Source: a virus. Taken from it: 61,886 nucleotides of DNA. The stretch lies in the IMG/VR virus record IMGVR_UViG_3300012683_000009. The stretch is one strand, 5' to 3'. Under the pieces are notes generated by a model. The model ran no database searches and was not told the DNA's origin. It saw only the letters and a program-made list of their open reading frames with translations. The translations under genes and the position numbers were made by a program. Of this stretch, positions 48,679 to 61,024 are shown one piece after another; the stretch's first letter is position 1; every line of letters starts with the position of its first letter.

Positions 48679-49015
48679 GAACAAGTGGGAAGGGCCGTAC
48701 ACGAAGCTCCACCTCACCCTCTTCGACCGAGGCCTCTACTTCGGTGAGGCCGTAGCCACCTCGTGGGAGTGGATCGAAAAGGGCTGGTGGTACCTCAACA
48801 ACATCGATGTCGACCCCGACTTCCAGGGCTTCGGCTTCGGAAGTCTGCTCATCCTGCGACTCTGCGAGGAGCTGAAGAAGAGGGGCATGATCGGGCTCTA
48901 CGTTGCCCCTGCTGCGACGGAGAACGACCTAGAGCGGTTGGAGCGCTTCTACCTGCGGAACGGCTTCGTGAAGACCGATGAGGGTCAAATGCCGTGGAAG
49001 AAAAGACTCCCCTGA
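48602..49015 (+). CDS. GNAT-family acetyltransferase-like protein
   Basis: ORF track; WYLNNIDVDPDFQGFGFGSLLI resembles GNAT motif A; start uncertain. Confidence 0.5.
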   Translation: MHSSTQHPSTHLPSSRVRPEVVQVVENKWEGPYTKLHLTLFDRGLYFGEAVATSWEWIEKGWWYLNNIDVDPDFQGFGFGSLLILRLCEELKKRGMIGLYVAPAATENDLERLERFYLRNGFVKTDEGQMPWKKRLP

Positions 49016-49070
49016 GATCGGCATAAGAAGAGAGCAGGGAAATCACTCTGCCTTTTCCTCGGGAGGGGAC

Positions 49071-49427
49071 TTGTCGAACCTGGCGCAGGAGCTGTTGATC
49101 AACACCGAACACTTGAAGCACCTCATCTTCGTTATGGTCTCTTCCGGAACTCTGGAGGAGAAGCTCAGGCCTTACAGAGAGCAGCTCCACGTGGTGCAGT
49201 CCCTCGACATGGAGCTCTCCGCCTTCTGCTTGAACATCGAGAGGGAGGGGCTCAGGGTCGAAGAGACCATCAAAGTCACTGAACGGATCGACGAGCTCGT
49301 CGAGCAGTGCAAGGCGTTCCTTCGAGTGCAGAGTCGAGAACTCGCCAGGGAGAGTCTGAAGCAGCTCAGGGACGAACACCGGGTGTTCCTGCATGCGATG
49401 GACGTCCGTCGGAAGGCTCGTTCATGA
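49071..49427 (+). CDS. Hypothetical protein (118 aa), TTG start after CCTCGGGAGGGGAC
   Basis: ORF 48978..49427 trimmed by analogy with the conserved SD cassette spacing. Confidence 0.45.
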   Translation: MSNLAQELLINTEHLKHLIFVMVSSGTLEEKLRPYREQLHVVQSLDMELSAFCLNIEREGLRVEETIKVTERIDELVEQCKAFLRVQSRELARESLKQLRDEHRVFLHAMDVRRKARS

Positions 49428-49714
49428 GCCAGTTCGGCTGTTACACCCTCGACCGTGCCTTCTGCACCTGTGGTAGTTGCGAGGCGTGCAAGCACCGAGC
49501 TCTCATCGAGGGTGAGGAGAAGGCGAAGCAGATGAAGACGGCCGTCGGGAGAGCCATCAACGGCTTCTACCGGAGGGTCAGCGCAGGGAAGTACAACAGC
49601 CCTGAGGACAAGAAGGAAAAGGCAAAGCAGCGCCTTGAAGACGAGCGGCGTAAGGAAGATGCGAAACAAGACCGGCTCTGGAGAAACCCAGAGCTCTTTC
49701 CACGGGGACCCTAA
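49424..49714 (+). CDS. Cys-rich protein (96 aa; CTCGSCEACKH)
   Basis: ORF 49307..49714 trimmed to ATGA-overlap ATG. Confidence 0.5.
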   Translation: MSQFGCYTLDRAFCTCGSCEACKHRALIEGEEKAKQMKTAVGRAINGFYRRVSAGKYNSPEDKKEKAKQRLEDERRKEDAKQDRLWRNPELFPRGP

Positions 49715-50605
49715 GTGACGACGACACCGACGACGACAAGCAGGCTGGTCGAGGCCACGCAGTTCACCATCCAGGACTACGAGATCTTCAAGACCGGAAC
49801 GAAGTTCGACAACAAGTTCCGCCAGGCTGCCATGGAGAAGATGGCCCTGGACGAGAAGGATCCGAAGTCCGAGCTCAACAAGCTCGGCTTCAAGGAGGTG
49901 CGTCGGGTCCGTGTTCTCCGGGAAGCAGGGGACACAGAGGGAACGAACCTGACGCTCGTCTACGAGACGAAGACCGACAAACGAACCCTGGAGATGGCGG
50001 CCTACAAGAAGGATCAGCAGAAGGCTGCCGACGTGAGGTACACCTTCCCGGTCTGGATCGCCGATGCGAAGGTCTACTTGAAGGCCGTCTTCACAGAGCT
50101 CGTGGAGTGGGTCGACGCCAAGACGACCCTCGCTGATCCACACAACCCAGAGCGCAACGTCCAGAAGGACATCGCAGACCAACTGGAAGTGCTCTGCAAG
50201 AAGATGGAAGAGTCGAAGCTGTCGAGCCAGGAGCTCGCCGTGATCCGAGTCGACGTCTACAAGATTCTCCACTCGCACACGAACGCTCAGTTCATCCCGA
50301 ACCTCGACGACACGACGGCCGAGGACTGGCCGAAGGAGAAGCTGGAGAAGGTGCAGGCGACGAATGCGGCACGAAGCGAGCTCTTCCTACGGCTCGACTT
50401 CCTCTCGTCGGCGCTCTGCTTCCTCCCGAAACCGCTGTTCGACAAGTCGTCGCTCCTCACCTACGCCACCTCTCTTCGTCCTCCTCGCCAAGCCCCCAAA
50501 GGGAACGCAGGAAGGCCGCCGAGGGAGAACAAGGGCAACGAGAAGCCGCAGAACCGTCAGCACCGCAATCCGAAGTCAGCAGAGAAGCCTCGTACTCAAG
50601 CGTAG
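49715..50605 (+). CDS. Hypothetical protein (296 aa)
   Basis: ORF track. Confidence 0.55.
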   Translation: MTTTPTTTSRLVEATQFTIQDYEIFKTGTKFDNKFRQAAMEKMALDEKDPKSELNKLGFKEVRRVRVLREAGDTEGTNLTLVYETKTDKRTLEMAAYKKDQQKAADVRYTFPVWIADAKVYLKAVFTELVEWVDAKTTLADPHNPERNVQKDIADQLEVLCKKMEESKLSSQELAVIRVDVYKILHSHTNAQFIPNLDDTTAEDWPKEKLEKVQATNAARSELFLRLDFLSSALCFLPKPLFDKSSLLTYATSLRPPRQAPKGNAGRPPRENKGNEKPQNRQHRNPKSAEKPRTQA

Positions 50606-50662
50606 CGGGTACAGTTCTGGGGATGCCGGCGCTTGTCAGCCTGCCGGCCCGCAACGTGGTGC

Positions 50663-50698
50663 CGGTCCTCGAAAGGGGGCCGGCACATTTCATTTAGG
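50663..50698 (+). terminator. Terminator-like hairpin (TGCCGGTCC / GGGCCGGCA) followed by CATTTCATTT
   Basis: Seen in sequence. Confidence 0.45.
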
Positions 50699-50704
50699 AG
50701 CCCT

Positions 50705-51088
50705 ATGGGACCGAGAAGAATGTGCATCATGCTGGGATGCCCGAACTACGCACTGGAGACGAAGGACACGTGCGGAGGGTGTACTGCCGGGGCCAGCATC
50801 GCAGGTCCGGCCCTGTCGGCTCCCTCTCCTGCTGCCATCGCAGCAGCCGAAGAGATGTTGAGGATTCCCAACGCTCTGGCTGCGGCGGTCAAGACGGCCG
50901 AGGAAGTCACGAAGCAGATGCACGTCCTGTGTGGACAGATGGAGCTCATTGCCCATCTCTTCACGGAGCGCCAACGAGCAACGTCAGCCCCTCCTGCTAA
51001 GAACTACTTCCTCAATGAACAACACACCACACACGTGTCCAAAGCACAGATCCGAAGAGAACGGCGAGAGGCCAAAGCGAGAAGCTGA
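50705..51088 (+). CDS. Cys-rich protein (127 aa)
   Basis: ORF 50633..51088 trimmed to ATG with AGGAGCC RBS. Confidence 0.5.
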   Translation: MGPRRMCIMLGCPNYALETKDTCGGCTAGASIAGPALSAPSPAAIAAAEEMLRIPNALAAAVKTAEEVTKQMHVLCGQMELIAHLFTERQRATSAPPAKNYFLNEQHTTHVSKAQIRRERREAKARS

Positions 51089-51197
51089 GAGCAAGCCTGC
51101 ACGCATTCGCCGCAAGACTCGGAAGTCTGGGTCCGGCCGTTCTCGTAGTCGCTGACTTCATCGGCCACATCTTCGGCATCGAACTCGGAGTCCACTG

Positions 51198-51554
51198 ATG
51201 GCACGCAAGAAGAAGGATCGGCCGTACGAGACCAACCGTTACCGGATGGGCATTCAGGTGACGGCAGGTGGTGTCTCTCTACCCAATGCCCACGTCGTCT
51301 ACGAGGTCTGCTACTCGGACGGCACTTCCCGACTCGAACGAGGGAGGTCCGTGTTCGGAGTGCAGGCAACGAACATCCGAAACAAGAAAGAGAGATTGGA
51401 GGCCGGGCTCACCAGTCGGCCTGATCTCTACACGGTGATGCACGCCGCAGCTCTGCTCAACAGACAGGTCGAAGAGGCCTGCCTCAGCGCTGATGGACAC
51501 TACGACCGGGCCGAGAGGCTCAAGAAGAAGCGCTACAAGGACGACTACTCATGA
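51198..51554 (+). CDS. Hypothetical protein (118 aa)
   Basis: ORF track. Confidence 0.5.
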   Translation: MARKKKDRPYETNRYRMGIQVTAGGVSLPNAHVVYEVCYSDGTSRLERGRSVFGVQATNIRNKKERLEAGLTSRPDLYTVMHAAALLNRQVEEACLSADGHYDRAERLKKKRYKDDYS

Positions 51555-52951
51555 ACAGAGAAGACATCACGCAGATCATCGAGAAACAGAAGACCATCGT
51601 CAGCCTCGCTCTCAGCAAGGGGATCGGAAGCGCCGACATTCGAGTCGATGAAGTCGTCGCCGAGAACGCCAACGAGACCATCGAGAAACTCAAGGCGATG
51701 ATCGAGCTCCCGATGCATCCAGATCCGGAGATCAACAAGGAAGTGAACGCCGACCTTCAAGCAGGAGAGGCAGCCGACAGAGTTGCAGGCCTTCCTTCTC
51801 AGAAGTTCGAAGAGAGCGAGCGAGAGCTGGATGAACGCTTTCGAGGGTGGACACCCACGCCCGAGAACGTCAATCGGCTTCCGGAGCCTCTTCGGCAGTA
51901 CATCCACGACATCGAGACGAAGTGCGATCCGGCTGGTGATGCTCAGCAGATCCTCCTTCTGAAGGACACCGTCAACGGCCAGGTCGTTCGCATCAAAGAG
52001 CTGGAGAACGCCTGCGACACCTTCGAGAAGAACTCGAACGAGGCCTCTCAGGTGTTCGAGGTGCTGATGCGCTACAGCCTGGTGCCTGCTGAGAAACCAG
52101 GTCCGACGTTGGCCGCCATCGTCTCGACTGCGCTGTTGGAGGTCGAGAAGGTCCACACGGCTCTGGGCAAGTTCCCTGGCAGCACCCTTTCCCTGGCAGC
52201 CGAAGTTCGCCTCAACGAGTACCGAGCGATGACCGAGAAGTACGAAGCGATGAAGCTTCAGGTCGAAGAGGCCGAGAAGAGCGTCAAGTTCCTGCTGGAT
52301 ACGGAGGCGATGTCGGCTCCGGACGTGGCAGCTCTGGTCGCTGCGGCCTTGGTCGTCAAAGACCTTCCGGAACCTGGGAGGAAAGCAGTGCAGGCCTTCG
52401 TTCGGAACATCCAGCGGCTCGAAGACAAGCTCGAAACGAAGACCTCGGACTACAACCGGCTCGTCCTCGCAGTGAAGAAGCACCACGATCAGAAGGGCGA
52501 CGACCGCTGCTGGCTCGATGATGCGACGCTCTACCAGGAGACCGGTCTCCAAGGAGCTGAGACAGCTCTTCCCGGCAGGGATGAATTCCTCGAAAACTGC
52601 TCCAGGTTCCATGAGAGCCGGGTGCATCCGAGCGACAAGAACAAGTACATCACCGTGGAGCAGCGCATCGTCAATGCTCGGACGCAGTGGGAGACGGAGG
52701 GCAACGAGCAGCTCAAAGAGAAAGAGAAGACGATCAAGAAGCTCGGCAACATGCTCGACAAGACCGTCGGGGATCTCCGGGCCGCTGTGAAGGTCCAGAG
52801 AGCCTTCAACGAGACCAAGACCATCAGTGGGAGGCAGTTCGCTTCCTCGATGACCAAGTACGTTCTCCCGGCCCTGAAGCGTCTCGGCTGGATTCCAACG
52901 AAAGAGGAGGCACGGGTTGGCAAAGCCAACGGCAGAGTTCGAGGACGTTGA
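51551..52951 (+). CDS. Hypothetical coiled-coil protein (466 aa)
   Basis: ORF track. Confidence 0.6.
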   Translation: MNREDITQIIEKQKTIVSLALSKGIGSADIRVDEVVAENANETIEKLKAMIELPMHPDPEINKEVNADLQAGEAADRVAGLPSQKFEESERELDERFRGWTPTPENVNRLPEPLRQYIHDIETKCDPAGDAQQILLLKDTVNGQVVRIKELENACDTFEKNSNEASQVFEVLMRYSLVPAEKPGPTLAAIVSTALLEVEKVHTALGKFPGSTLSLAAEVRLNEYRAMTEKYEAMKLQVEEAEKSVKFLLDTEAMSAPDVAALVAAALVVKDLPEPGRKAVQAFVRNIQRLEDKLETKTSDYNRLVLAVKKHHDQKGDDRCWLDDATLYQETGLQGAETALPGRDEFLENCSRFHESRVHPSDKNKYITVEQRIVNARTQWETEGNEQLKEKEKTIKKLGNMLDKTVGDLRAAVKVQRAFNETKTISGRQFASSMTKYVLPALKRLGWIPTKEEARVGKANGRVRGR

Positions 52952-53114
52952 GTGCATCGCTGAAACAACCGATGCCATCCTTGTCGTCGTGGAGGGCAAA
53001 GAGCACTGGATCCCCAAGAACCAGGTCAACGAAGACAGCGAAGTCTACGAGAAGGGTGGGGAGGGCACTCTCATCGTCACTCAGTGGATCGCAGAGAAGG
53101 AGGGACTCGTTTGA
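52917..53114 (+). CDS. Hypothetical protein (65 aa)
   Basis: ORF track. Confidence 0.4.
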   Translation: MAKPTAEFEDVECIAETTDAILVVVEGKEHWIPKNQVNEDSEVYEKGGEGTLIVTQWIAEKEGLV

Positions 53115-53512: not shown

Positions 53513-53532
53513 GAAAAACAGCTCCTCCCGAG

Positions 53533-53540
53533 GGCATAAG
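53533..53540 (+). promoter_or_regulatory. GGCATAAG promoter-like element, then hairpin, then CTTCTCGGGAGGAAG SD and ATG 53598
   Basis: Motif recurrence. Confidence 0.45.
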
Positions 53541-53597
53541 AGAGGTGAGCAAATCGGAAACGTACTTGCTCATCAACTCGCTTCTCGGGAGGAAGCC

Positions 53598-53987
53598 ATG
53601 GATAACATGCAGAAGAACGAATGCGAAACGTGTGGTGGCGGTTTCGATGGGTACACCGCACCAGAGGCTCGGTGCAGGTGCAAGGAGGAGGCGAAGCACG
53701 AGATGCTGCTCGCGGAGACCAAGTACCTGAAGCGCTCCGGGTGGGAGCCTGTCGATCACATCTCGCTGGCGGAGGGCTCCTCGTGGAAAGCTCCGACCGG
53801 CGACGGACCGATCAGCCAGGCGGCTGCGGTCGACATCCAGAAGCAGCTCGATCGTCGGCCGGCCGTTCGTGGTGTGTGGCTGAGGGGGATCACCACGACC
53901 ACCCTCCGCTCGGAGATGAAGGACGCTCACGAGACCGCCAAGATGCAGATTGCGGAGATGAAGCTCCGTCACAAGGTTCACTGCTGA
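53598..53987 (+). CDS. Cys-rich protein (129 aa)
   Basis: ORF track. Confidence 0.55.
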   Translation: MDNMQKNECETCGGGFDGYTAPEARCRCKEEAKHEMLLAETKYLKRSGWEPVDHISLAEGSSWKAPTGDGPISQAAAVDIQKQLDRRPAVRGVWLRGITTTTLRSEMKDAHETAKMQIAEMKLRHKVHC

Positions 53988-54026: not shown

Positions 54027-54065
54027 CAGAAGCACGAGAACATCCGTGCTTCTGTTTTAGCTCTT
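54027..54065 (+). terminator. Terminator: 10-bp stem CAGAAGCACG/CGTGCTTCTG then TTTT-AGCTCTT
   Basis: Seen in sequence. Confidence 0.65.
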
Positions 54066-54084
54066 GGAGAGGTACCCTGAACGC

Positions 54085-54509: not shown

Positions 54510-54528
54510 GCAAAGCACTCTGGTACGA

Positions 54529-54537
54529 GGGGATAAG
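54529..54537 (+). promoter_or_regulatory. GGGGATAAG promoter-like element followed by two hairpins and a GGGGG SD before ATG 54621
   Basis: Motif recurrence. Confidence 0.4.
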
Positions 54538-54620
54538 AACCTTGATGAGAGAGGCAATTCAGCCTCCTCCGTAAAGGAGTGTCCCGTTGAGAGGCAACCA
54601 CCACAACGGGGGTTCGTAAG

Positions 54621-54920
54621 ATGGAACCGGAAAGTACGAACCCTCCAGTTGAAAGCTCTCCGTACCCAGAGCTGAAAGAAGCTCTAGAAGTCTTCGAACA
54701 GGTCGTGTTCTACGAGAAGGAACTAGCTGCCGAGTCCATCTTCATTGGTCATCTGAGCGACCACGTGAAGGGAACAGCGCTGAGGTATCTCCTGGAGGGG
54801 AGACCTGTGCCAGAGATCATTGCGTACCTCGAAGAGGCGCAACGGAGCTTCAAGCAGTACCGTCGAGATCAACTCCCTCGTAGCAACCCTATTCGGGTCT
54901 ACAAGAAGGAGCATCTGTAG
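54621..54920 (+). CDS. Hypothetical protein (99 aa)
   Basis: ORF track. Confidence 0.5.
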   Translation: MEPESTNPPVESSPYPELKEALEVFEQVVFYEKELAAESIFIGHLSDHVKGTALRYLLEGRPVPEIIAYLEEAQRSFKQYRRDQLPRSNPIRVYKKEHL

Positions 54921-55077
54921 TGGAGCCGGGTTCCACAAGAAGACCGAGGTAGAGCAGCCTCCGGTCCCTCCTCCCGAGGCCCGTGTTTCACGGGGGAAAG
55001 AGGCCAGTTCGGCTCTCTCCCTTTAGGTGTCAGACCCACCTGATAGACCAGCAGTGCCACTCAACCAAGGAGCAGTC

Positions 55078-55995
55078 ATGAGCAACAACCACCCACTCAC
55101 GAAGCAGGACGTCATGCAGGAGCTGAGCTCGATGGAGGGCCGCTTGGAGGCTCTTCTGACCCAGTGGCAGTCCACTGAGGAGGAAATCAAGACAGCAGAG
55201 CAGCACCTGGTGGAACGCAAGGAGGCCCTGGACACCATCAAGAAGGAAGTCGACGAGCACCGTACCGGCATCGCCAACATGAGGAACACCCTCGGGACCT
55301 ACCAGCAGATGGAGCTGGTCGCCTCTGGGAACGACGAAGACTTCAACGGTTGCCCTCATGAGTGGCAGCGAGAAGTCATCGTCTTCATGCGTCGCCAGCC
55401 CGGAGTGAAGTTCCACTTCAGCACCATGTTGACCCTCGTGGACAAGAAGCTGCCGACGGAGGTCTTCACGAAGAACCGATCGGCGATGCTGAATCTGATG
55501 GGCCACCTCATCACGAAGGGGAAGGTCGCCAAGGGCAAGAACGGCAACTACTCGTGGGCCGTCTTCCCGAAGGACTGGAAGACGCCTGCTCCAGTGGTGT
55601 CTCTCTTCAAGACTGGGGAGACGATCGATCGCACCAAGGTCGCCAGCAAGTTCGTCGACTGGATCGTCGCTGGCAAAGAGTACATCCAGAAGGATCTGGA
55701 GAAGGAGTTCCACCAGAAGTGCATTGAGGAGGAGCTCTCGTTCGGCACGCCGGACGACTTCAAGAACGACGCCCAGTTCATCGAGCGCCACATCTACGAG
55801 AGGTCGCAGCACGCCACGGGCATCATCTCCGTCTACGAGAAGGACCCCTCAGGTCGAAAGGGAGATGAGATCTCGACACACCTGATCATCTCCAGGATGC
55901 GGCAGCCTCCGAAGGCGCCCTGGGTCATCGTGCCGAACCCCACCTTCAAGATGCCGCCCCTCGGCATCAAGAGACCGGGTGCCAAGGGAGCCTAG
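55078..55995 (+). CDS. Hypothetical protein (305 aa)
   Basis: ORF 55027..55995 trimmed to ATG with AAGGAGCAG RBS. Confidence 0.55.
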   Translation: MSNNHPLTKQDVMQELSSMEGRLEALLTQWQSTEEEIKTAEQHLVERKEALDTIKKEVDEHRTGIANMRNTLGTYQQMELVASGNDEDFNGCPHEWQREVIVFMRRQPGVKFHFSTMLTLVDKKLPTEVFTKNRSAMLNLMGHLITKGKVAKGKNGNYSWAVFPKDWKTPAPVVSLFKTGETIDRTKVASKFVDWIVAGKEYIQKDLEKEFHQKCIEEELSFGTPDDFKNDAQFIERHIYERSQHATGIISVYEKDPSGRKGDEISTHLIISRMRQPPKAPWVIVPNPTFKMPPLGIKRPGAKGA

Positions 55996-56013
55996 AAACT
56001 GAGCTCCGTCCTG

Positions 56014-56021
56014 GGGATAAG
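56014..56021 (+). promoter_or_regulatory. GGGATAAG promoter-like element, then 13-bp-stem hairpin, then CTCTCGGGAGGAG SD and ATG 56073
   Basis: Motif recurrence. Confidence 0.45.
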
Positions 56022-56072
56022 GTGAAGAGGACAGAAGCACTTTGTCCTCTTCACCGCTCTCGGGAGGAGCAC

Positions 56073-56315
56073 ATGAACCAATACATGGAGTCGGAAGTCG
56101 TCAGGGAATTCGAGAAGAAGCTCATCGCACTGCTGTTGAAGAACGAGCCCAATGGCGGGGCTCTCGGTCTAATCGCCTGGATGTGCCGCAACCTTCACGA
56201 AGCGGATCTTCTCATCTTGGAGAGGGTCGAGAAGGAGATCGGCGAAGAGGGTGCGAGAGACTGGCTGGACCGGGTCATCCGCACTGCATTCCCCCAAACC
56301 ATCGCAGCAGCCTGA
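56073..56315 (+). CDS. Hypothetical protein (80 aa)
   Basis: ORF 56022..56315 trimmed. Confidence 0.5.
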   Translation: MNQYMESEVVREFEKKLIALLLKNEPNGGALGLIAWMCRNLHEADLLILERVEKEIGEEGARDWLDRVIRTAFPQTIAAA

Positions 56316-56323
56316 GGAGGCAC

Positions 56324-56968
56324 ATGTCCACGTACGATCCAGACAGTCTCGTAGGCTACACGATGATTCACGCAGAAGAGAGCTGGGGCGGGAAGGGAAC
56401 CTTCGGGATCAAGATCTTCATCAAGGACACAGAGCGAGACAAGCTCGATGTCCCGGTGAACCGTCACGGCAAGAAGGCGAAGTTCAACACCGACGGAGAC
56501 TGGAAGTCTGTCTACGACGCCGTCAAGCTCATCACCATCGGCATCCGGGGCAGCACGGAGAAGCTGAAGCCGGACTTCGCCGAGAAGAAGGTGAAGCAGC
56601 AGGAGTACTACAAGAACCTCTTCGTCGAGGCTGGCATCACCACCGTCTACATGCAGGAGCTGCCAAACGGCTACTGCCCGGAGGGTGGCTGGTGCTGTCT
56701 CGACAAGCCGTGGTTCAAGGTCACCACGCCCTTCGGTCACGTCAAGATCGGCTGGAGGAAGAGCGTCATCAACATCGACTGGACTGAGAGCGACATTCGC
56801 CCAGGCGGAGAAGAGCTTTTTCCGAACGAGAACGTGACTCGCGGAGGGAAGTACAGCGACGAGGCGAAGTACATCCACGCTCATGGCGACAAGAAGGCCA
56901 TCGAGTATCTCAAGGTGCTGAAGCAGGAAGCGGAGAATCCGACACCCGAAAAGAAGGAGGAGCCATGA
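56324..56968 (+). CDS. Hypothetical protein (214 aa)
   Basis: ORF 56042..56968 trimmed to ATG with GAGGAGG RBS. Confidence 0.55.
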   Translation: MSTYDPDSLVGYTMIHAEESWGGKGTFGIKIFIKDTERDKLDVPVNRHGKKAKFNTDGDWKSVYDAVKLITIGIRGSTEKLKPDFAEKKVKQQEYYKNLFVEAGITTVYMQELPNGYCPEGGWCCLDKPWFKVTTPFGHVKIGWRKSVINIDWTESDIRPGGEELFPNENVTRGGKYSDEAKYIHAHGDKKAIEYLKVLKQEAENPTPEKKEEP

Positions 56969-57792
56969 AGTACCTCACGATTCTGATGACGGGGATCGAC
57001 CCCTTCACCAACTCTGCCTCCATCGGGCTCTATCGATGGAAGTGGGTGGCATGGCTCTTCGGTCTCTGGGCCAAGCTTCACTACGGTGGCGGGCTCTTCG
57101 TCCTCTGGCACATCCCGGAGAGTCACCCGCCCAGGTTCAACAAGAAGAACACTCCGTGGAGCTCAATCCAGCAGATCCAGGAGTGCACGAGGTGCGAGTC
57201 AAGGTGGATCTGGGACGGAGTCTTTGCTCCCACGTGGGTGTGGTCGAAGGCGCCTTGCTTCGACTGCGTCTGCGAGGCGAAGGCTCAGGGGTTCGACTCT
57301 CCTAAGAAGGCTCTAGGCAGAGTCACCGTCTCGGTCAAAGGAGAGGTGATCACCGCAGAGGCGATCCCCATTCCAAGGAAGCAGCTCGGGGTCCCTCTCC
57401 TTCCTTCTGGTGAGCCCGATTGCCCTGAGTGCGCCAACGGCATGACCCATGACCAGTGCAGAACGGGCTGGAAGGCGGTCTTGCAGGCCAACCTGGAGGC
57501 CAAGGTCGCAGACGGCTCTCTTCCGAAGTGGCGACCTCCGTGCAACACCTGCGGCAGCAACTGCGGCCAGTGCGGTAGCAGTCACTGCGGAATCTGCGGT
57601 GTGAAAGGTGGGTATCCGCACAACGGAAAGTGCGACCAGGCGATGCACGCAGCCTACGAGGCCACGAAGTGTGGGCTGTGTGGGAAGTACGCAGCTCACT
57701 TCTGCGTGGACAACAAGGTCGCCGGTGAACAGTACAGCGCCAGAAGCACGTACAAGAAGGGTGAGAAAGACGCCATGGGAGATTCCATGTGA
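56965..57792 (+). CDS. Cys-rich (about 20 Cys) membrane-anchored protein (275 aa)
   Basis: ORF track. Confidence 0.55.
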   Translation: MKYLTILMTGIDPFTNSASIGLYRWKWVAWLFGLWAKLHYGGGLFVLWHIPESHPPRFNKKNTPWSSIQQIQECTRCESRWIWDGVFAPTWVWSKAPCFDCVCEAKAQGFDSPKKALGRVTVSVKGEVITAEAIPIPRKQLGVPLLPSGEPDCPECANGMTHDQCRTGWKAVLQANLEAKVADGSLPKWRPPCNTCGSNCGQCGSSHCGICGVKGGYPHNGKCDQAMHAAYEATKCGLCGKYAAHFCVDNKVAGEQYSARSTYKKGEKDAMGDSM

Positions 57793-57919
57793 GAAGCCTT
57801 CTCGTGAAGAGCGGAGTGCGAGGCAATTGGGGCTACGCCTGGCACTGCGCCAACTACAAGAAGCCCCGTTTCCCGAAGAGGGTACTCAGGACGGTTCTGA
57901 TGTACCTGGGGTTCATGCC

Positions 57920-58132
57920 ATGAAGAATCTGAAGAAGGATGCACCGTCTCGCAACGTTGGGGAAGTGGGCAAGGGCGACTTCATCAAGGTGGGATCCGTC
58001 TGGAAGGAGATTGCTCACAACTCAGGAGAAGGTCCAGAGTACCAGAGTGACTGGTCGGTCGAGACCACCGACGGAAGTCGTCACGGCATGTTCAACATCA
58101 AGCGGTACGCCAAGAAGGAAGACCTGGAGTAG
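57920..58132 (+). CDS. Hypothetical protein (70 aa)
   Basis: ORF 57608..58132 trimmed. Confidence 0.5.
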   Translation: MKNLKKDAPSRNVGEVGKGDFIKVGSVWKEIAHNSGEGPEYQSDWSVETTDGSRHGMFNIKRYAKKEDLE

Positions 58133-58137
58133 GGGTC

Positions 58138-58168
58138 GGAGAGAGGCCGTCGCCTTTCTCCTTTAGCC
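58138..58168 (+). terminator. Terminator hairpin (GGAGAGAGGC / GCCTTTCTCC) then TTTAGCC
   Basis: Seen in sequence. Confidence 0.5.
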
Positions 58169-58326
58169 TTCACTTTTCCTGCTCAAACCACCCTCCTGGT
58201 GGCCCATTAGAGAGTGAGGCGTTTCGAACCGACCGGTTCACGCCCCTCTGTAACGGACCCACCCTCTATTTCCGGGTTGTCACGCTTCGCCCTATTCAAG
58301 GGAGAGCGACCGGGGTCTATCAGGAG

Positions 58327-58542
58327 ATGAACATGTCACCACAGGCGAAGGCTCTCTGGCAGCGGTACTTTGGACAGTTCCCCAAGTCGATGAGGTACCG
58401 GCCCGATGGCATCACGGCTCGGCCCATGGAGCTGATGAGCTACCTGGTGGTCACGGTCGAAGGACCGGGTGGAGTGATAAGCTCGGGCGGCTACAAGTGC
58501 GGCCCTCTGCCTGCTTCTGGAGGTAGGAAGTGGCCTGGCTGA
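58327..58542 (+). CDS. Hypothetical protein (71 aa)
   Basis: ORF track. Confidence 0.5.
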   Translation: MNMSPQAKALWQRYFGQFPKSMRYRPDGITARPMELMSYLVVTVEGPGGVISSGGYKCGPLPASGGRKWPG

Positions 58543-58567
58543 CAGAGGCAAACAGTCTTCTCCCCAC

Positions 58568-58575
58568 GGCATAAG
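58568..58575 (+). promoter_or_regulatory. GGCATAAG promoter-like element, then hairpin, then CTCTCGGGAGGAG SD and ATG 58627
   Basis: Motif recurrence. Confidence 0.45.
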
Positions 58576-58626
58576 GGAAGAGCAGGAAGAAGCATTCAGC
58601 TTCTTTCAGTCTCTCGGGAGGAGACA

Positions 58627-58971
58627 ATGGATCGATACGCTTGGGTGCAGAACTACAACCGGGTCGCAAAGCAGTGGAACGACAGCTACGAGAAGTTCTC
58701 GACGCTGCCTCCTGGCCGCATCAGGGAGAGTGCTCTGGAGCTGCTCCAGATCCAGGGTGCGGACATCATCTTCTTCTTGAACCTGGTCTGGGGCGCCCTC
58801 ACGCCCGAGGACTTCAAGAACCTGGGGCTCATGCAGGGAGCGATGCCGGTGCTGGTCGACGTGGATGATCCTCACGTCATCGCCGGCTTCCTCCTCTTCC
58901 AGGACAACAAGGGGCCGAAGGTCGAGGGCTACGTCGAGGCGCTTCAGAAGGCGGTGAGCTATGCCAACTGA
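58627..58971 (+). CDS. Hypothetical protein (114 aa)
   Basis: ORF track. Confidence 0.55.
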   Translation: MDRYAWVQNYNRVAKQWNDSYEKFSTLPPGRIRESALELLQIQGADIIFFLNLVWGALTPEDFKNLGLMQGAMPVLVDVDDPHVIAGFLLFQDNKGPKVEGYVEALQKAVSYAN

Positions 58972-59200
58972 CATCCCAGAGCTCGTCATCGCCAACAGCC
59001 AGATGGAACCCAACATGTGGTACGTGCGCCGAGGAGACGGGAGCACGAGCCACCAAGACGTGGCCGTCATCTTCGTCTTCGGAAAGGTGAGTCAACATCT
59101 CCCCTCTCCGGAGGTGCTGGACTTCATCAACGAGAAGCTCGGTGCGAAGACGATCGAGCAGCTCTTGCAGGAAGCTGAGAACCGAAAGGGGCAGCGATGA
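58961..59200 (+). CDS. Hypothetical protein (79 aa)
   Basis: ORF track. Confidence 0.5.
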   Translation: MPTDIPELVIANSQMEPNMWYVRRGDGSTSHQDVAVIFVFGKVSQHLPSPEVLDFINEKLGAKTIEQLLQEAENRKGQR

Positions 59201-59472
59201 ACTTCTACCGGTTCACACTGGCAGACCTCATCACGGAGCTCATCTTGCTGCCGCTTCGCCCCATAGCGAGGTGGTACTACCGGGAGTCTCCGAAGCCGCC
59301 CCACTACGGGAACACGACCTACGTGGTGAAGAGGCACTTCATCAACGGAGAGGAGCCGATGGAAGTGGGACGAACCACGGACTACGGGGCCGCTCTGGAG
59401 CTCGCCGAGAAGGTGAAGATGACGGAGAACTTCGACCCGTTCTTCAAAGAGGCACGCATCCACGTGGAGTGA
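59197..59472 (+). CDS. Hypothetical protein (91 aa)
   Basis: ORF track. Confidence 0.5.
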   Translation: MNFYRFTLADLITELILLPLRPIARWYYRESPKPPHYGNTTYVVKRHFINGEEPMEVGRTTDYGAALELAEKVKMTENFDPFFKEARIHVE

Positions 59473-59537
59473 GAACTCCAAGGAGGAGCCCAGGGTCTTA
59501 CCTGGCGCTTCTTCTAGCTCCCAAACCAAGGAGACAA

Positions 59538-59777
59538 ATGACGTTCTCATCAATCAGGTACGAAGGACCGATGTGCCAGGCGATGGTGGTGGCCGAGGTG
59601 AAACATCGTCTCGAACTCGCCATCACAGAGCTCAGGAAGATGAACGACGGGTTCGCTGCGATCGGAGCCGAGGGGACCAACACCAAGCTGAACAACATCA
59701 TCGGCAGGTTGCTGGACCAGAAGGAAGACCTCTACTACCTCCACTGCGAGCTCGAACAGGATCTCAAGAACCGATGA
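59538..59777 (+). CDS. Hypothetical protein (79 aa)
   Basis: ORF 59142..59777 trimmed to ATG with AAGGAGAC RBS. Confidence 0.5.
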   Translation: MTFSSIRYEGPMCQAMVVAEVKHRLELAITELRKMNDGFAAIGAEGTNTKLNNIIGRLLDQKEDLYYLHCELEQDLKNR

Positions 59778-59977
59778 AGACGAAAGAAGAAGCCATGCTG
59801 GAGCTGGAGATGAGGCTGTTCGTCCAGAAGATGGACAAGGTCCCAGATGTAGAGGACCTCAGCACTCAGGCCAAGGAACAGACCATCGAGAGGCATACTC
59901 TCTGGGCCGCCGAGAGCGCCATACAAGAAGCCAAAGTCTTCTTCTCGGTGCGTAGTTTGGGCCCGGACCCGACATAG
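59774..59977 (+). CDS. Hypothetical protein (67 aa)
   Basis: 3' part of ORF 59573..59977 from ATGA-overlap ATG. Confidence 0.45.
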   Translation: MKTKEEAMLELEMRLFVQKMDKVPDVEDLSTQAKEQTIERHTLWAAESAIQEAKVFFSVRSLGPDPT

Positions 59978-59987
59978 GAGTCCTACA

Positions 59988-60260
59988 ATGAACGGCAAGA
60001 AGATGACGAAGAGGGAGATTCTGACCGATCTCAACACGGTCTTGGGCAGGACTTACGAGAAGCTCGTGAAGAGCGAAGAAGAGCTTGAGAAGCTGGAATA
60101 CGCCTTCACCGTGCTGGGCCATGGCAACGGTGGGCAGATCATTCGGCGACTGAGATACGAGATTCAGCAGTCGAAGACCGACGTGAACTGGGCTCTCAAG
60201 ATGGTGAAAGAGGAGGGTCTCGCCCTCCTCAAGGTGAAGTCCAAGAGCAAAAAGACGTGA
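59988..60260 (+). CDS. Hypothetical protein (90 aa)
   Basis: ORF track. Confidence 0.5.
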   Translation: MNGKKMTKREILTDLNTVLGRTYEKLVKSEEELEKLEYAFTVLGHGNGGQIIRRLRYEIQQSKTDVNWALKMVKEEGLALLKVKSKSKKT

Positions 60261-60324
60261 CTCTTCGGGACAAGGTCGTAACGGAAGACATCTCGTCTTC
60301 TGGTTCTCTCGGGAGGAGAACATC

Positions 60325-60474
60325 ATGACCATCGGAACCTACTTGAAGATCCTCGTTCACGGCATCGCCATCGGGTATGCGTACCACGATGAAATCAACG
60401 AAGGCATCGAGCTCGGGGCGAAGGCGGCGGTGAAGGGCTACCGGCTGCTTCGTCGGAAGCTGGCGCAGGCCTGA
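60325..60474 (+). CDS. Small protein (49 aa) preceded by CTCTCGGGAGGAG SD
   Basis: Manual; below cutoff; coordinates +/- 2 nt. Confidence 0.4.
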   Translation: MTIGTYLKILVHGIAIGYAYHDEINEGIELGAKAAVKGYRLLRRKLAQA

Positions 60475-60476
60475 CA

Positions 60477-60566
60477 TGTACCTCGAACTGGCAGGCGTGG
60501 TGATGATCGTCTGGGCACTCTGTATGAGCACCTACTGGGTCATCAGGATCGTGAAGAAGCGCTGAC
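60477..60566 (+). CDS. Possible 29-aa transmembrane peptide (MYLELAGVVMIVWALCMSTYWVIRIVKKR)
   Basis: Manual; very short. Confidence 0.3.
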
Positions 60567-60688
60567 CCGTTGGGTCGGCTCGGAGGGTACCCACCCTCCT
60601 CTTAGCTCTTCGCCGAAATTCTTCCTGATGATGTGGGACAAGGAGGGAGTGGGAGACATCTTGTCTCTCGTTCTCGGGAGGAACACAC

Positions 60689-61024
60689 ATGCCGCATACC
60701 AAGACGGTCATCACCATCGAGCTCGATCAGCAGCTCGCACCTGAGGTGAAGAAGGAGCTCGCTGAGCTCTTTGCTGATGCCCTGCACGAGTTCAAGGGCA
60801 ACCGGTTGCCCATCTACAGCTACTTCGAGCGGAACTACGGGAACAAGTCGGTCTACAAGACCGAGGCGGAGAAGGCCCGGAAGATGGCCCAGATTGACCG
60901 ACGGGTGACTCTGGCCGGGATGCTCCACAACCCGGTGCTGCGGCTGGAGGTCAAAGAAGAGGAGGTCCCCGACAAGTTCGAGCCGGGGTCTCCGGAGTAC
61001 GAGGCCGTCGCAAGGAGCGAGTGA
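60689..61024 (+). CDS. Hypothetical protein (111 aa) preceded by TTCTCGGGAGGAAC SD
   Basis: ORF track. Confidence 0.5.
   Translation: MPHTKTVITIELDQQLAPEVKKELAELFADALHEFKGNRLPIYSYFERNYGNKSVYKTEAEKARKMAQIDRRVTLAGMLHNPVLRLEVKEEEVPDKFEPGSPEYEAVARSE

What the first reader, a model, noticed from the sequence alone, without database searches (positions are those of the whole stretch)
49000..60700. Repeated promoter-like/translation-initiation cassette: G[CGT]ATAAG, hairpin, CTCTCGGGAGGAG, N5-7, ATG
At least six genes (starts 49071, 53598, 56073, 58627, 60325, 60689) are preceded by the near-identical motif (C)TCTCGGGAGGAG 5-7 nt before the start codon. This is longer than a plain SD. In several cases a -10-like element lies 35-60 nt further upstream: GGCATAAG at 49020, 53533, 58568; GGGATAAG at 56014, 54529. 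A short stable hairpin sits in between. The same ATAAG element occurs before the MVP gene (11033) and inside the divergent-promoter operator at 38693 (GGTATAAGACGTAGG, sharing the 11-mer ATAAGACGTAG with 11035). This looks like a phage-specific middle/late promoter plus conserved 5'UTR. The T4 late promoter TATAAATA is an analogy.
Basis: seen in the sequence. Interest (0 to 1): 0.7.

Follow-up and report, generated by a model that had tools for sequence, protein, structure and literature searches.

The report
Repeated phage promoter–hairpin–ribosome-site cassette
An uncultivated large phage places the same ~80-base control module (a probable phage-specific promoter, a hairpin and an unusually long ribosome-binding site) before six genes, and in most copies the promoter DNA also encodes an RNA strand that would hide the ribosome site in transcripts arriving from upstream, a trick known from phage T4.

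Summary
The box + gap + CTCGGGAGG composite occurs 6 times in the window against 0.01 expected. It recurs at syntenic sites in at least seven related metagenomic phage contigs.

1. A -35-like G[AC]AAA lies exactly 15 nt upstream of GG[CG]A[TCA]AAG, which is sigma-70-like spacing. A matrix built from these two blocks alone finds 8 window sites. All 8 are on the gene strand, intergenic, and 50-93 nt before a start codon; two of them lack the long ribosome site.
2. A covarying hairpin starts a few nt after the box in 50 of 51 sites.
3. The 12-mer is itself a small hairpin: a 4-6 bp covarying stem presents UCGGGAG (the SD) in its loop.
4. In cassettes A-D the promoter spacer is complementary to the ribosome site (mean -20.5 vs about -10 kcal/mol in controls). 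Where orthologous promoters precede a different SD, the spacer matches that SD instead.

Best reading (confidence 0.55): a phage-clade-specific promoter with a 5' hairpin and an extended SD, in which read-through RNA has its SD sequestered. This is the logic of T4 genes e, soc, 49 and I-TevI, in a composite-cassette format like PeSLs. No transcript data exist, and host and timing are unknown.

Also noticed: one invariant stand-alone anti-SD 15-mer followed by a terminator, possibly a trans-acting regulator.

The parts
49000..49073 (+). Cassette A: -35-like GAAAA 49000-49004; anti-SD arm GACTCCCCTGAG 49005-49016 (overlaps the stop codon of the GNAT gene, 49013-49015); box GGCATAAG 49020-49027; hairpin 49034-49051; SAS CCTCGGGAGGGG 49057-49068; TTG start 49071
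   Evidence: Arm x SAS duplex -17.9 kcal/mol (3 of 200 shuffles reach it). The cassette is present after the GNAT orthologue in 6 genomes.
53513..53600 (+). Cassette B: GAAAA 53513-53517; anti-SD arm AGCTCCTCCCGAGGG 53520-53534; box GGCATAAG 53533-53540; hairpin 53545-53573; SAS TCTCGGGAGGAA 53583-53594; ATG 53598
   Evidence: (top matrix score, 26.5). Duplex -25.5 kcal/mol (0 of 200 shuffles). Predicted unpaired probability of the SD is 0.00 in read-through RNA and 0.90 in promoter-initiated RNA.
55994..56075 (+). Cassette C: AGAAAC 55994-55999 (overlaps stop TAG 55993-55995); anti-SD arm AGCTCCGTCCTGGG 56002-56015; box GGGATAAG 56014-56021; 14-bp hairpin 56022-56054; SAS TCTCGGGAGGAG 56058-56069; ATG 56073
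   Evidence: (-21.2 kcal/mol, 0 of 200 shuffles). In orthologous promoters in L092, L094 and L095 a different SD is matched by a different spacer.
58548..58629 (+). Cassette D: GCAAA 58548-58552; anti-SD arm GTCTTCTCCCC 58555-58565; box GGCATAAG 58568-58575; hairpin with C-AUUCA-G loop 58585-58607; SAS TCTCGGGAGGAG 58612-58623; ATG 58627
   Evidence: (-19.3 kcal/mol, 1 of 200 shuffles).
60247..60327 (+). Cassette E: GCAAA 60247-60251; box GGGACAAG 60267-60274; hairpin 60283-60301; SAS TCTCGGGAGGAG 60307-60318 inside a 6-bp local hairpin (gttctc/gagaac); ATG 60325. No significant anti-SD arm.
   Evidence: (-10.8 kcal/mol, 25 of 200 shuffles).
60615..60691 (+). Cassette F: GAAAT 60615-60619; box GGGACAAG 60635-60642; hairpin 60651-60669; SAS TCTCGGGAGGAA 60672-60683; ATG 60689
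   Evidence: The anti-SD arm is weak or absent in the other F-type copies (F group mean -12.2 kcal/mol).
60578..60612 (+). Terminator-like hairpin GGAGGGTACCCACCCTCC with tail TCTTAGCTCTTCG, immediately upstream of cassette F
   Evidence: Equivalent hairpins precede F-type cassettes in L092, L095 and L097.
54510..54623 (+). Promoter-like site without SAS: GCAAA 54510-54514; box GGGATAAG 54530-54537; hairpin with AAUUCA loop 54550-54567; two further 5'UTR hairpins; ATG 54621
   Evidence: 25.7 bits; conserved in 5 relatives; no spacer-ribosome-site complementarity: -9.1 kcal/mol, 158 of 300 shuffles.
11013..11129 (+). Promoter-like site without SAS, before the vault-protein-like gene: TCAAA 11013-11017; box GGCATAAG 11033-11040; hairpin 11046-11073; ATG 11127
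   Evidence: 16.4 bits; no complementarity; MVP_shoulder domain.
54966..55030 (+). Stand-alone anti-SAS CCCTCCTCCCGAGGC (54966-54980), followed by a strong terminator-like hairpin (about 54993-55021) and TTTAGG. It lies in the 3' untranslated region of gene 54621-54920.
   Evidence: The 15-mer is invariant in all 7 related contigs while its flanks vary, and it is a perfect complement of CTCGGGAGGAG.
54027..54064 (+). Terminator-like hairpin with tail TTTTAGCTCT, closing the one-gene unit of cassette B

Best explanation
Each copy is a composite expression cassette of a large uncultivated phage. Reading 5' to 3', it has four parts.

(1) A clade-specific bipartite promoter: a -35-like G[AC]AAA, a 15-16 nt spacer, and a -10-like GG[CG]A[TCA]AAG. 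It is presumably read by host RNA polymerase carrying a phage-specified or unusual sigma-type factor.

(2) A stem-loop that begins a few nt after the box. It would therefore sit at the very 5' end of the transcript, where such hairpins are known to protect mRNA. Many copies carry an invariant C-AUUCA-G loop, so a bound factor is possible.

(3) The 12-mer (T)CTCGGGAGGAG. This is a strong SD (GGAGG) displayed in the 7-nt loop UCGGGAG of a weak hairpin with a 4-6 bp stem, 4-8 nt before the start codon.

(4) In cassettes A-D, which directly abut the upstream gene with no terminator between, the promoter spacer is also an anti-SD strand (about CTCCYCCYGAGG). RNA that reads through from the upstream gene contains this strand and folds into a long-range helix that buries the SD, with the inner hairpin stacked inside. 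RNA started at the cassette's own promoter lacks the strand and is translatable. The gene is therefore translated only when its own promoter fires.

Shown by computation: the motifs, their geometry, their distribution and conservation, the pairing potential and the covariation. Inferred: promoter activity, the transcription start, the translational consequence and the timing.
For: Enrichment:
- The composite pattern occurs 6 times against 0.01 expected.
- The exact core occurs 9 times against 1.9 expected.

Conservation:
- There are 30 full cassettes in 6 syntenic genomes whose flanking proteins are only 40-87% identical, plus two more metagenome contigs.

Promoter reading:
- In the box-anchored alignment, A is present in 29 of 30 copies at -19 and at -18, and G G. 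A. A A G is invariant in 30 of 30, at a fixed distance.
- A matrix built from the two blocks alone gives 8 window hits at >=12 bits (7 at >=15 bits against 0.2 in shuffles). All 8 are on the + strand and intergenic, 50-93 nt before starts. No minus-strand site reaches even 9 bits.
- The same holds in 5 relatives and in 9 kb of extra source contig.
- About 190 kb of Acidobacteriota and other genome (mostly MAG) DNA gave only 2 weak hits.
- The motif occurs without the SAS (54530, 11033).
- F-type copies follow terminator-like hairpins, and cassette B's gene is closed by a terminator.

Post-promoter hairpin:
- 50 of 51 sites have one, starting a median 2.5 nt after the box.
- For the 13 AUUCA-loop copies, 89.7% of cells are paired, 8 of 9 pairs change on both sides, and the covariation score is 0.635 against 0.350 in shuffles (0 of 500 reach it).

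SAS hairpin:
- Covariation score 0.399 against 0.197 (0 of 500 shuffles). The pairs switch between UA, CG and GC.

Anti-SD arm:
- Duplex energy averages -17.9 kcal/mol over all 30 copies, against -10.2 for shuffled arms and -10.9 for upstream windows.
- Groups A-D average -20.5; groups E-F average about -12 to -13.
- 60 of 379 pairs are G-U, and the + strand is more stable than the - strand.
- RNAalifold recovers the nested helix in each orthologous group, with one-sided C-to-U changes.
- Arm-level covariation: the site-C promoters of L092, L094 and L095 drive a gene with SD GAAAGGAG, and their spacers (CGGCCCTTTCC and variants) pair with that sequence (-22.7, -24.2 and -15.1 kcal/mol; 0, 0 and 5 of 300 shuffles). 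SAS-less promoters with long 5'UTRs show no such pairing.
- L113 shows GACTCTTCCTC pairing with GGGAGGAAGAGTC.
- The predicted unpaired probability of the SD is 0.09 in read-through RNA and 0.41 in promoter-initiated RNA for A-D (p = 2e-7; copies are not independent). For E-F it is 0.34 vs 0.46.

Precedent:
- T4 genes e, soc, 49 and I-TevI (PMC3014915).
Against: - There are no transcript or reporter data, so promoter activity and the transcription start are inferred.
- The -10-like box lacks the canonical T at its last position, and neither hexamer matches TTGACA/TATAAT.
- No sigma factor or RNA polymerase gene was found in the part of the window scanned with Pfam. Most of the genome was not available.
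- The host is unknown.
- The 3' arm (the SD) is invariant within the SAS-bearing copies, so classical two-sided covariation of the outer helix rests on a few flanking positions and on the site-C and L113 cases.
- Orthologues and paralogues are not independent samples, so the p-values are optimistic.
- The extended stems of several post-promoter hairpins begin 0-3 nt after the box, so a start 6-8 nt downstream would remove part of them.
- Cassettes E and F keep the full SAS without an anti-SD arm, so the arm does not explain why the 12-mer is conserved.
- Even in the short RNA the SD is predicted to be only 41% unpaired.
Confidence: 0.55

Rival explanations
1. An RNA-only element. The whole module, including G[AC]AAA and the box, is transcribed as part of a polycistronic mRNA. 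It acts as an intercistronic processing site (an RNase III-type interrupted helix, as in T7) or as a translational operator. In the operator version, the conserved unpaired box in the internal loop is bound by a phage protein that opens or locks the SD-sequestering helix, as Mu Com does on mom mRNA.
For: - The minimum-free-energy and consensus folds give a 20-30 bp interrupted helix with the box largely unpaired in an internal loop.
- The helix lies between genes with no terminator.
- Conserved loops on variable stems are typical of protein-bound RNA hairpins.
Against: - The box and G[AC]AAA keep a fixed linear spacing of 15 nt whatever the register of the helix.
- Both elements occur intact where no outer helix exists: 54530, 11033 and the E/F sites.
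- F-type copies sit just downstream of terminator-like hairpins, where a new promoter is needed.
- No Rfam family matches.
- The RNase III and Com analogies come from my own knowledge and were not tested.
Confidence: 0.15
2. A trans-acting anti-SAS regulon, which could act in addition to the promoter reading rather than replace it. The 12-mer is conserved because all SAS-bearing mRNAs are targets of one phage RNA. That RNA would be the 3' untranslated end of the 54621-54920 transcript, which carries CCCUCCUCCCGAGGC just upstream of its terminator hairpin. It would pair with CUCGGGAGGAG, possibly starting as a loop-loop contact (CUCCC with GGGAG), and shut off or time the translation of the whole gene set.
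For: - The 15-mer is invariant in 7 related contigs while its flanks vary.
- It always lies 8-12 nt before a strong terminator-like hairpin followed by UUUAG.
- It is the exact complement of the SAS.
- It lies downstream of a high-scoring copy of the same promoter motif (25.7 bits).
- It would explain why the SAS is conserved in cassettes E and F, which lack a cis arm.
- The SAS and the anti-SAS both fold as mini-hairpins with complementary loops.
Against: - No covariation test is possible, because the SAS and anti-SAS are identical in every genome found.
- Ranking the anti-SAS region against all 117 ribosome sites puts 5 SAS genes on top, but with little margin over background.
- The element could be a relic 5' arm of a decayed cassette or simply part of a terminator region.
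- There is no evidence that a stable small RNA accumulates.
Confidence: 0.15
3. A recombination cassette of the PeSL type. The repeated ~80-bp modules mainly serve as homology patches that shuffle orphan genes between phages and carry their expression signals with them. On this view the fine structure is secondary.
For: - The cassettes flank small genes with no hits in the Pfam or PHROGs scans run on them.
- Gene content downstream of equivalent cassettes differs between relatives. For example, the 114-aa gene after cassette D has no homologue after the D cassettes of the other genomes, although the first codons ATGGATCG are shared.
- PeSLs are composite promoter + stem-loop repeats with this distribution in T4-type phages (PMC2839356, PMC4122927).
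Against: - This reading explains spread, not sequence constraint.
- Covarying stems, an invariant SAS, and spacers matched to their own SD in genomes with 40-67% protein identity all indicate selection on expression function.
- Recombination junctions were not mapped.
Confidence: 0.1
4. DNA-level operator sites. The near-palindromic CCTC-NN-GAGG elements on both sides of the box are binding sites for a dimeric phage DNA-binding protein that controls the promoter between them. This is what Pope et al. proposed for the ESAS repeats of Cluster K mycobacteriophages.
For: - Both elements contain CCTC..GAGG symmetry.
- ESAS repeats were judged to be DNA sites because their departures did not preserve pairing (PMC3203893).
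Against: - Here the departures do preserve pairing.
- The two elements match as complements (CC/CT facing GG in the centre), not as direct repeats.
- 16% of pairs are G-U, and the transcribed strand folds better than its complement.
- Flanking positions covary.
- The arm changes completely when the SD changes.
Confidence: 0.04

Closest known systems
T4 genes e (lysozyme), soc, 49 and I-TevI: a late promoter embedded in the DNA that encodes the 5' strand of an SD-sequestering helix (McPheeters et al. 1986; reviewed in Uzan & Miller 2010, PMC3014915)
   Same: - An upstream, co-directional transcript contains both strands of a helix that buries the SD.
- A promoter lies in or next to the 5' strand, so its own transcripts lack that strand and are translatable.
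- The arrangement is conserved in related phages.
   Different: - In T4 these are individually evolved structures at a few genes, using the TATAAATA late promoter, which has no -35 element.
- Here there is one stereotyped module: a bipartite promoter whose spacer is the anti-SD strand, plus an inner hairpin and a fixed 12-nt SD, reused at four or more genes per genome.
- Neither the promoter class nor the timing is established here.
- Nothing has been tested experimentally.
PeSLs (promoter-early stem-loops) of T4-type phages (Arbiol et al. 2010, PMC2839356; Comeau et al. 2014, PMC4122927)
   Same: - Both are repeated intergenic composite cassettes of about 70-100 bp that combine a promoter with a stem-loop.
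- Both are clustered in a plastic region upstream of small orphan genes.
- In both, the gene content between cassettes differs between relatives.
   Different: - PeSL promoters are near-consensus sigma-70 early promoters, and the stem-loop is viewed as a terminator for upstream transcription.
- Here the promoter is non-canonical, and the stem-loop lies downstream of the box.
- The cassette also fixes the ribosome site and an anti-SD strand.
- Recombination between copies was not shown here.
[quoted passage not shown] 2011, PMC3203893)
   Same: - Both are a conserved, asymmetric 12-13 nt motif containing the SD, a few nt before start codons (mostly ATG).
- Both occur in one orientation and only in the non-structural arm.
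- About half of the Cluster K copies have an inverted repeat upstream.
- The Cluster K motif GGG-ATAGGAG-CCC, like UCGGGAG here, could put the SD in a 7-nt loop closed by a short stem.
   Different: - The sequence is different (GGGATAGGAGCCC) and the phage and host group are different.
- Cluster K stems never vary, so no covariation is available there, whereas here the stems covary.
- ESAS repeats do not preserve RNA pairing and were assigned to DNA binding.
- No promoter motif is linked to the Cluster K SAS.
- The function of the Cluster K SAS is still unknown.
T7 intercistronic RNase III sites and 5'-terminal stem-loop mRNA stabilisers such as the ompA leader (from my own knowledge, not checked here)
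   Same: - Both include interrupted helices between genes of a phage operon.
- Both include a hairpin at or within a few nt of the mRNA 5' end.
   Different: - No cleavage data exist here.
- T7 sites do not contain a promoter in their internal loop.
- T7 sites do not systematically include the SD.

Membership tests
T4-type 'promoter inside an SD-sequestering helix' control | The 5' strand of the helix is complementary to the SD or start codon of the downstream gene | tested here: met
   Cassettes A-D: duplex energy averages -20.5 kcal/mol against about -10 in controls. The spacer follows the SD when the SD differs. Not met in E and F.
T4-type 'promoter inside an SD-sequestering helix' control | A promoter lies within or next to the DNA encoding the 5' strand, so that its transcripts lack that strand | tested here: inconclusive
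   The anti-SD arm is the spacer of a bipartite promoter-like motif. Promoter activity and the transcription start were not measured.
T4-type 'promoter inside an SD-sequestering helix' control | Upstream co-directional transcription runs into the element (no terminator in between) | tested here: met
   In A-D the upstream stop codon lies 0-25 nt before the box, leaving no room for a terminator. F-type copies, which do have a terminator-like hairpin upstream, lack the arm.
T4-type 'promoter inside an SD-sequestering helix' control | Long transcripts are poorly translated and short ones well translated | not testable with these tools
   Prediction only: the SD unpaired probability is 0.09 vs 0.41.
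T4 late promoter (gp55-dependent) | TATAAATA at -10 and no -35 element | tested here: not met
   The consensus is GG[CG]A[TCA]AAG, with a conserved G[AC]AAA 15 nt upstream.
Canonical sigma-70 promoter | Two hexamers separated by 16-18 nt | tested here: met
   There are 15 nt between G[AC]AAA and GG, i.e. 16-17 nt between hexamers.
Canonical sigma-70 promoter | Hexamers resemble TTGACA and TATAAT (A at position 2 and T at position 6 of the -10) | tested here: not met
   The consensus scan finds none of the cassettes. The last base of the box is an invariant G.
PeSL cassettes | A repeated intergenic composite of promoter plus stable stem-loop, upstream of orphan genes in a plastic region | tested here: met
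   50 of 51 promoter hits carry a hairpin. The cassette genes have no Pfam or PHROGs match. Gene content is shuffled between relatives.
PeSL cassettes | A near-consensus sigma-70 early promoter, with the stem-loop acting as a terminator | tested here: not met
   The promoter is non-canonical. Only one inner hairpin (49034-49051) passes the terminator scan.
PeSL cassettes | Recombination between copies (mini-circles, junctions at cassettes) | not tested
   There is only indirect gene-content evidence.
Cluster K SAS/ESAS | Consensus GGGATAGGAGCCC with at most 2 departures | tested here: not met
   The motif here is (T)CTCGGGAGGAG. The definition comes from PMC3203893.
Cluster K SAS/ESAS | 3-8 nt upstream of start codons, one orientation, non-structural arm | tested here: met
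Any described RNA family (Rfam 15) | A covariance-model match at E <= 1 | tested here: not met
   In 38000-61886 only the tmRNA matches.
Intrinsic terminator | A GC-rich hairpin followed by a U-run | tested here: not met
   Inner hairpins are followed by sequences such as CAGTCTCTC or CGCTCTC. Only 49034-49051 is flagged.

The most novel reading that the evidence does not exclude
The extended SD is the address label of a phage-encoded post-transcriptional regulon. A single invariant anti-SAS sequence (CCCUCCUCCCGAGGC, window 54966-54980) sits just upstream of a terminator in the 3' end of an mRNA driven by the same promoter class. It would act in trans, perhaps through a loop-loop contact between two mini-hairpins, on every mRNA that displays UCGGGAG(GAG) in its SD hairpin. 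The cis anti-SD spacers would be built-in copies of the same regulator. That would be a phage system in which one short RNA seed and its cis copies gate the translation of a whole gene set through an SD extension. It would also offer a mechanistic model for the still unexplained start-associated sequences of Cluster K mycobacteriophages.
Probability: 0.15. Interest if true: 0.75.

Novelty: new variant of a known kind. Interest (0 to 1): 0.5.

Why it matters
If the reading is right, it has four consequences.

- It defines the promoter consensus and transcription-unit map of an uncultivated clade of large phages, possibly infecting Acidobacteriota. Almost none of their genes can be annotated, so this gives a handle for sorting them into expression classes.
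- It shows the T4 'promoter inside an SD-hiding helix' device turned into a reusable module. The spacer of a bipartite promoter doubles as the translational silencer, so one stretch of DNA is under simultaneous DNA-level and RNA-level selection.
- The covarying stem around the SD loop is the first comparative evidence I know of that a start-associated-sequence-like motif acts as an RNA hairpin. This bears on the open question of what Cluster K SAS elements do.
- The stand-alone anti-SAS gives a directly testable hypothesis for a phage 3'UTR-derived regulator.

Tried and rejected
- **12-mer with up to 2 mismatches:** not enriched (18 vs 19.8), so it was dropped in favour of the exact core and the composite pattern.
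- **IMG/VR pattern scan** (ATAAG, gap, TCTCGGGAGGA): 90 single hits, with no similarity to the window by blastn. I treated them as chance.
- **IMG/VR protein-based searches:** no relatives.
- **INPHARED megablast:** no match.
- **Metagenome scan with a strict composite pattern:** 16 hits, of which only 2 are real relatives.
- **Rfam:** nothing on the cassettes.
- **Pfam and PHROGs on cassette genes:** nothing.
- **Pfam on concatenated proteins of 22.7-53.5 kb:** no sigma factor. The Serglycin hits are an artefact of my Gly-Ser linkers.
- **Sigma-70 consensus scans:** not enriched, and they miss all cassettes.
- **Sigma-54 reading (GG...GC 10 nt apart):** rejected by eye, because the region downstream of the box is not conserved in sequence or register.
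- **Inner hairpin as a terminator:** rejected, because there are no U-runs.
- **The two CCTC..GAGG elements as direct repeats or protein sites:** rejected, because their centres are complementary (CC/CT facing GG), G-U pairs are frequent, and the arm changes with the SD.
- **The 38690 GGTATAAG site as a family member:** rejected, at 4.4 bits.
- **Ranking the anti-SAS region against all ribosome sites:** uninformative.
- **More distant relatives** (36% identity to the 214-aa protein; L129-L131): fetched to look for a co-varying SAS/anti-SAS pair. They lack the cassette altogether.
- **One MAFFT alignment across all hairpin types:** it mis-registers AUUCA and AUCUU loops, so pair counts were made on ungapped, loop-anchored sets only.
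- **A covariance model of the whole cassette:** not built.

Full report
**1. What is in the sequence**

The window is about 59% G+C. It forms one end of an 88,861-bp metagenomic contig, ENA ERZ27253174 k141_1051315. It encodes:
- an rIIA-like protein;
- a major-vault-protein-like protein and an AAA ATPase;
- a GroES homologue, a nuclease and a receiver domain;
- two tRNAs and a tmRNA.

It has no close relative among deposited phages. It is therefore part of a large uncultivated phage.

My gene model matches the genes called on the contig. All genes from 38.7 kb to the end are on the + strand.

The exact core CTCGGGAGG occurs six times on the + strand, only between 49 and 61 kb, and each copy lies 4-8 nt before a start codon. 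A GG[CG]A[TCA]AAG box lies 32-62 nt upstream of the SAS in the 30 copies found across six genomes. The composite pattern occurs 6 times against 0.01 expected. The 12-mer with two mismatches is not enriched.

**2. Relatives**

The 466-aa protein at 51551-52951 has homologues at 40-87% identity on other large contigs of 27-164 kb. I fetched five syntenic loci.

They carry the same cassette at equivalent positions. Thirty copies in six genomes have box, SAS and start codon together. A strict pattern scan of JGI metagenomes added two more contigs.

More distant phages, sharing only 36% identity in a neighbouring protein, lack the cassette, and IMG/VR holds no relative. The module is therefore conserved, but confined to a narrow clade.

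**3. A bipartite promoter-like motif**

I aligned the 30 copies on the box. This shows a second conserved block, G[AC]AAA, at a fixed distance. A is present in 29 of 30 copies at two of its positions, and there are 15 nt between the block and the invariant GG. That is the 16-17 nt hexamer spacing of sigma-70-family promoters, although neither hexamer resembles TTGACA or TATAAT.

A matrix built only from these two blocks gives the following results:
- It finds eight sites in the window at >=12 bits. All eight are on the + strand, at a gene end or intergenic, and 50-93 nt before a start codon.
- Seven of them reach 15 bits, against 0.2 expected from shuffles. No minus-strand site reaches even 9 bits.
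- Two of the eight have no SAS: 54530, and 11033 before the vault-protein gene.
- In the five relatives, and in 9 kb of extra source contig, every hit is again on the gene strand.
- About 190 kb of Acidobacteriota and other genome (mostly MAG) DNA gave two weak hits.

F-type copies follow a terminator-like hairpin. The gene of cassette B is closed by one. This is the layout expected of real transcription units. I infer a promoter; nothing here measures transcription.

**4. The hairpin after the box**

Fifty of 51 matrix hits in eight contigs are followed by a stable hairpin, which starts a median 2.5 nt after the box. The stems differ between sites and between orthologues, but pairing is kept.

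For the 13 copies with the invariant C-AUUCA-G loop:
- 89.7% of cells are paired;
- 8 of 9 pairs show changes on both sides;
- the covariation score is 0.635, against 0.350 for shuffles (0 of 500 reach it) and at most 0.313 for slid controls.

With a start about 6-8 nt after a -10 element (general knowledge), the hairpin would sit at the 5' end of the RNA. There, stem-loops are known to stabilise mRNA (my knowledge). The conserved loops leave room for a bound factor.

**5. The 12-mer is a small hairpin**

The bases flanking UCGGGAG pair as gcttc/gaagc, gctc/gagc, gtctc/gagac, gttctc/gagaac or gttc/gaac. On the ungapped alignment, individual pairs switch between UA, CG and GC. The covariation score is 0.399 against 0.197 (0 of 500 shuffles), and slid controls reach at most 0.204. 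The SD is thus presented in a 7-nt loop on a weak stem. This explains part of the motif being 'longer than a plain SD'.

**6. The promoter spacer is an anti-SD strand**

In cassettes A-D the 12-15 nt between the two promoter blocks read about CTCCYCCYGAGG, which is the complement of CTCGGGAGGAG. The evidence for pairing is as follows.
- Folding -110..+6 gives a nested structure of outer helix, unpaired box and inner hairpin.
- RNAalifold recovers this structure in each orthologous group, with C-to-U changes that keep G-U pairs.
- The arm x SAS duplex averages -17.9 kcal/mol, against -10.2 for shuffled arms and -10.9 for upstream windows. Groups A-D average -20.5; E and F average about -12 to -13.
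- 16% of the pairs are G-U, and the transcribed strand folds better than its complement.
- The two elements match as complements, not as direct repeats (CC/CT faces GG in the centre).
- The pairing extends into variable flanks: GAGC/GCTC, GAGAC/GTCTY, and GAAGAGTC/GACTCTTC in L113.

The strongest point comes from the site-C promoters of L092, L094 and L095. They drive a gene with an ordinary SD (GAAAGGAG), and their spacers (CGGCCCTTTCC and variants) are complementary to that sequence (-22.7, -24.2 and -15.1 kcal/mol; 0, 0 and 5 of 300 shuffles). Promoters with long 5'UTRs (54530, 11033 and their orthologues) show no such match.

The predicted unpaired probability of the SD is 0.09 in RNA starting 60 nt upstream of the box, and 0.41 in RNA starting 7 nt after it, for A-D. 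For E-F the values are 0.34 and 0.46.

A-D abut the upstream gene with no terminator. F-type copies have a terminator upstream and no arm.

**7. Mechanism and rivals**

The best reading is a phage-specific promoter, a 5' hairpin and an extended SD, with read-through RNA translationally silenced by the spacer-encoded strand. This is the logic documented for T4 genes e, soc, 49 and I-TevI (PMC3014915).

The rivals are:
- An RNA-only processing site or operator. It is disfavoured by the fixed spacing of the two blocks and by their occurrence without any helix.
- A PeSL-like recombination role, which is compatible and possibly additional.
- DNA operator sites. These are disfavoured by the G-U pairs, the strand asymmetry and the arm-level covariation.

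What the cis model does not explain is why E and F keep the exact 12-mer.

**8. An unexpected extra**

One stand-alone copy of the complement, CCCTCCTCCCGAGGC (54966-54980), lies in the 3' untranslated region of gene 54621-54920, a few nt before a strong terminator-like hairpin. The 15-mer is invariant in all seven related contigs while its flanks vary. A seed followed by a terminator is the layout of 3'-end-derived small RNAs (my knowledge). A trans-acting anti-SAS would account for the conservation of the 12-mer. This cannot be tested here, because SAS and anti-SAS never vary.

**9. Comparison with known systems, and novelty**

The module works like the T4 examples, has a composite-cassette format like PeSLs, and resembles Cluster K SAS/ESAS in placement (PMC3203893). 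It fails the sequence definitions of all three (see the membership table) and matches no Rfam family.

I rate it a new variant of a known kind. It has a new promoter consensus, a spacer that doubles as a translational silencer, an SD hairpin with covariation support, and a possible trans regulator. Timing, host and the factor that reads the promoter remain unknown.

Noticed in passing
window 54966-55030 (+); also L092 13430, L094 8907, L095 13451, L097 12993, L098 12455, L113 11708: A stand-alone anti-SAS, CCCTCCTCCCGAGGC, is invariant in 7 contigs. It lies just upstream of a terminator-like hairpin plus TTTAG, in the 3'UTR of the gene driven by the SAS-less promoter at 54530. It may be a trans-acting RNA seed.
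   Followed up: partly
window 42765-43147 (+): A complete tmRNA gene lies in the phage (Rfam RF00023, 151 bits; ARAGORN tag peptide ANDNVELADSPVRLAA), in the 402-nt gap between genes.
   Followed up: no
window 11127-13817 (+) and 16474-18084 (+): An 896-aa protein carries a major-vault-protein shoulder domain (E = 1.6e-30) and vault repeats, with an AAA+ ATPase a few genes downstream. It is preceded by a copy of the promoter-like motif (box 11033) and by tRNA-Arg (10926-10999). A vault-protein homologue seemed unusual to me in a phage; I did not check how common it is.
   Followed up: no
window 3062-3149 (+) and 10926-10999 (+): tRNA-Ser(CGA) and tRNA-Arg(TCT) genes.
   Followed up: no
window 20059-22395 (+); 23541-24596 (+): An rIIA-like protein (25-32% identity to rIIA of many large phages), and a DUF3150 protein downstream. 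These indicate a large lytic phage.
   Followed up: no
window 24603-24632, 54027-54064, 60578-60612, 61706-61731 (+): Terminator-like hairpins share a conserved tail, TT(T)TAGCTCT(TCG) or TTTCCTTAGC. The same tail follows hairpins in the relatives. This may be a clade- or host-specific terminator signature, or the start of the next promoter region.
   Followed up: no
window 55022-55048 (+) and relatives: TTTAG(G/A)TGTCAGACCCCAGTG(G/A)TACAC is conserved downstream of the anti-SAS terminator and upstream of the 305-aa gene in six genomes. GGTGTCA also occurs at 38666 in the divergent region. This may be a second promoter class.
   Followed up: no
window 58627-58971 versus L092 16304-16693 and the other D-site genes: The genes downstream of equivalent cassettes are not homologous, although the cassette and the first codons (ATGGATCG) are shared. 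Several genes in 57.8-60.6 kb have no counterpart in the relatives. This suggests cassette-mediated gene shuffling as proposed for PeSLs.
   Followed up: partly
L100-L110 (genome contigs): A 50-residue motif of the 466-aa protein (residues about 102-152) has relatives on large contigs of Acidobacteriaceae/Acidobacteriota MAGs with 54-59% G+C, plus single hits in a Candidatus Binatia MAG and a Sphingomonas genome. This is a weak hint that the host is an acidobacterium. Those loci contain no cassette.
   Followed up: partly
window 3239-7285 (-): A 1348-aa protein has a Laminin_G_3 domain and many tandem copies of a ~40-aa repeat (…DWLPDYPDFARAAPRPVNEGG…). It is probably a fibre or receptor-binding protein.
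   Followed up: no
L129 4214, 6364, 9161, 11273, 12602, 13437: A distant relative (NCBI GCA_040384425.1 contig, 180 kb) lacks this cassette but has its own intergenic repeat, TTGAGGGATA-N-CCCTATTG, followed by TTGACA-like/TAnnnT-like hexamers. That is a conventional stem-loop + sigma-70-type promoter cassette.
   Followed up: no
window 29470-29498 (-) and 38123-38150 (-): Two of the three sigma-70-consensus matches in 24-43.5 kb lie in intergenic gaps, correctly oriented for the leftward gene cluster (TTGACA-17-GATACT; TTGACT-16-TACACT). They are possible host-type promoters, distinct from the cassette promoter.
   Followed up: no
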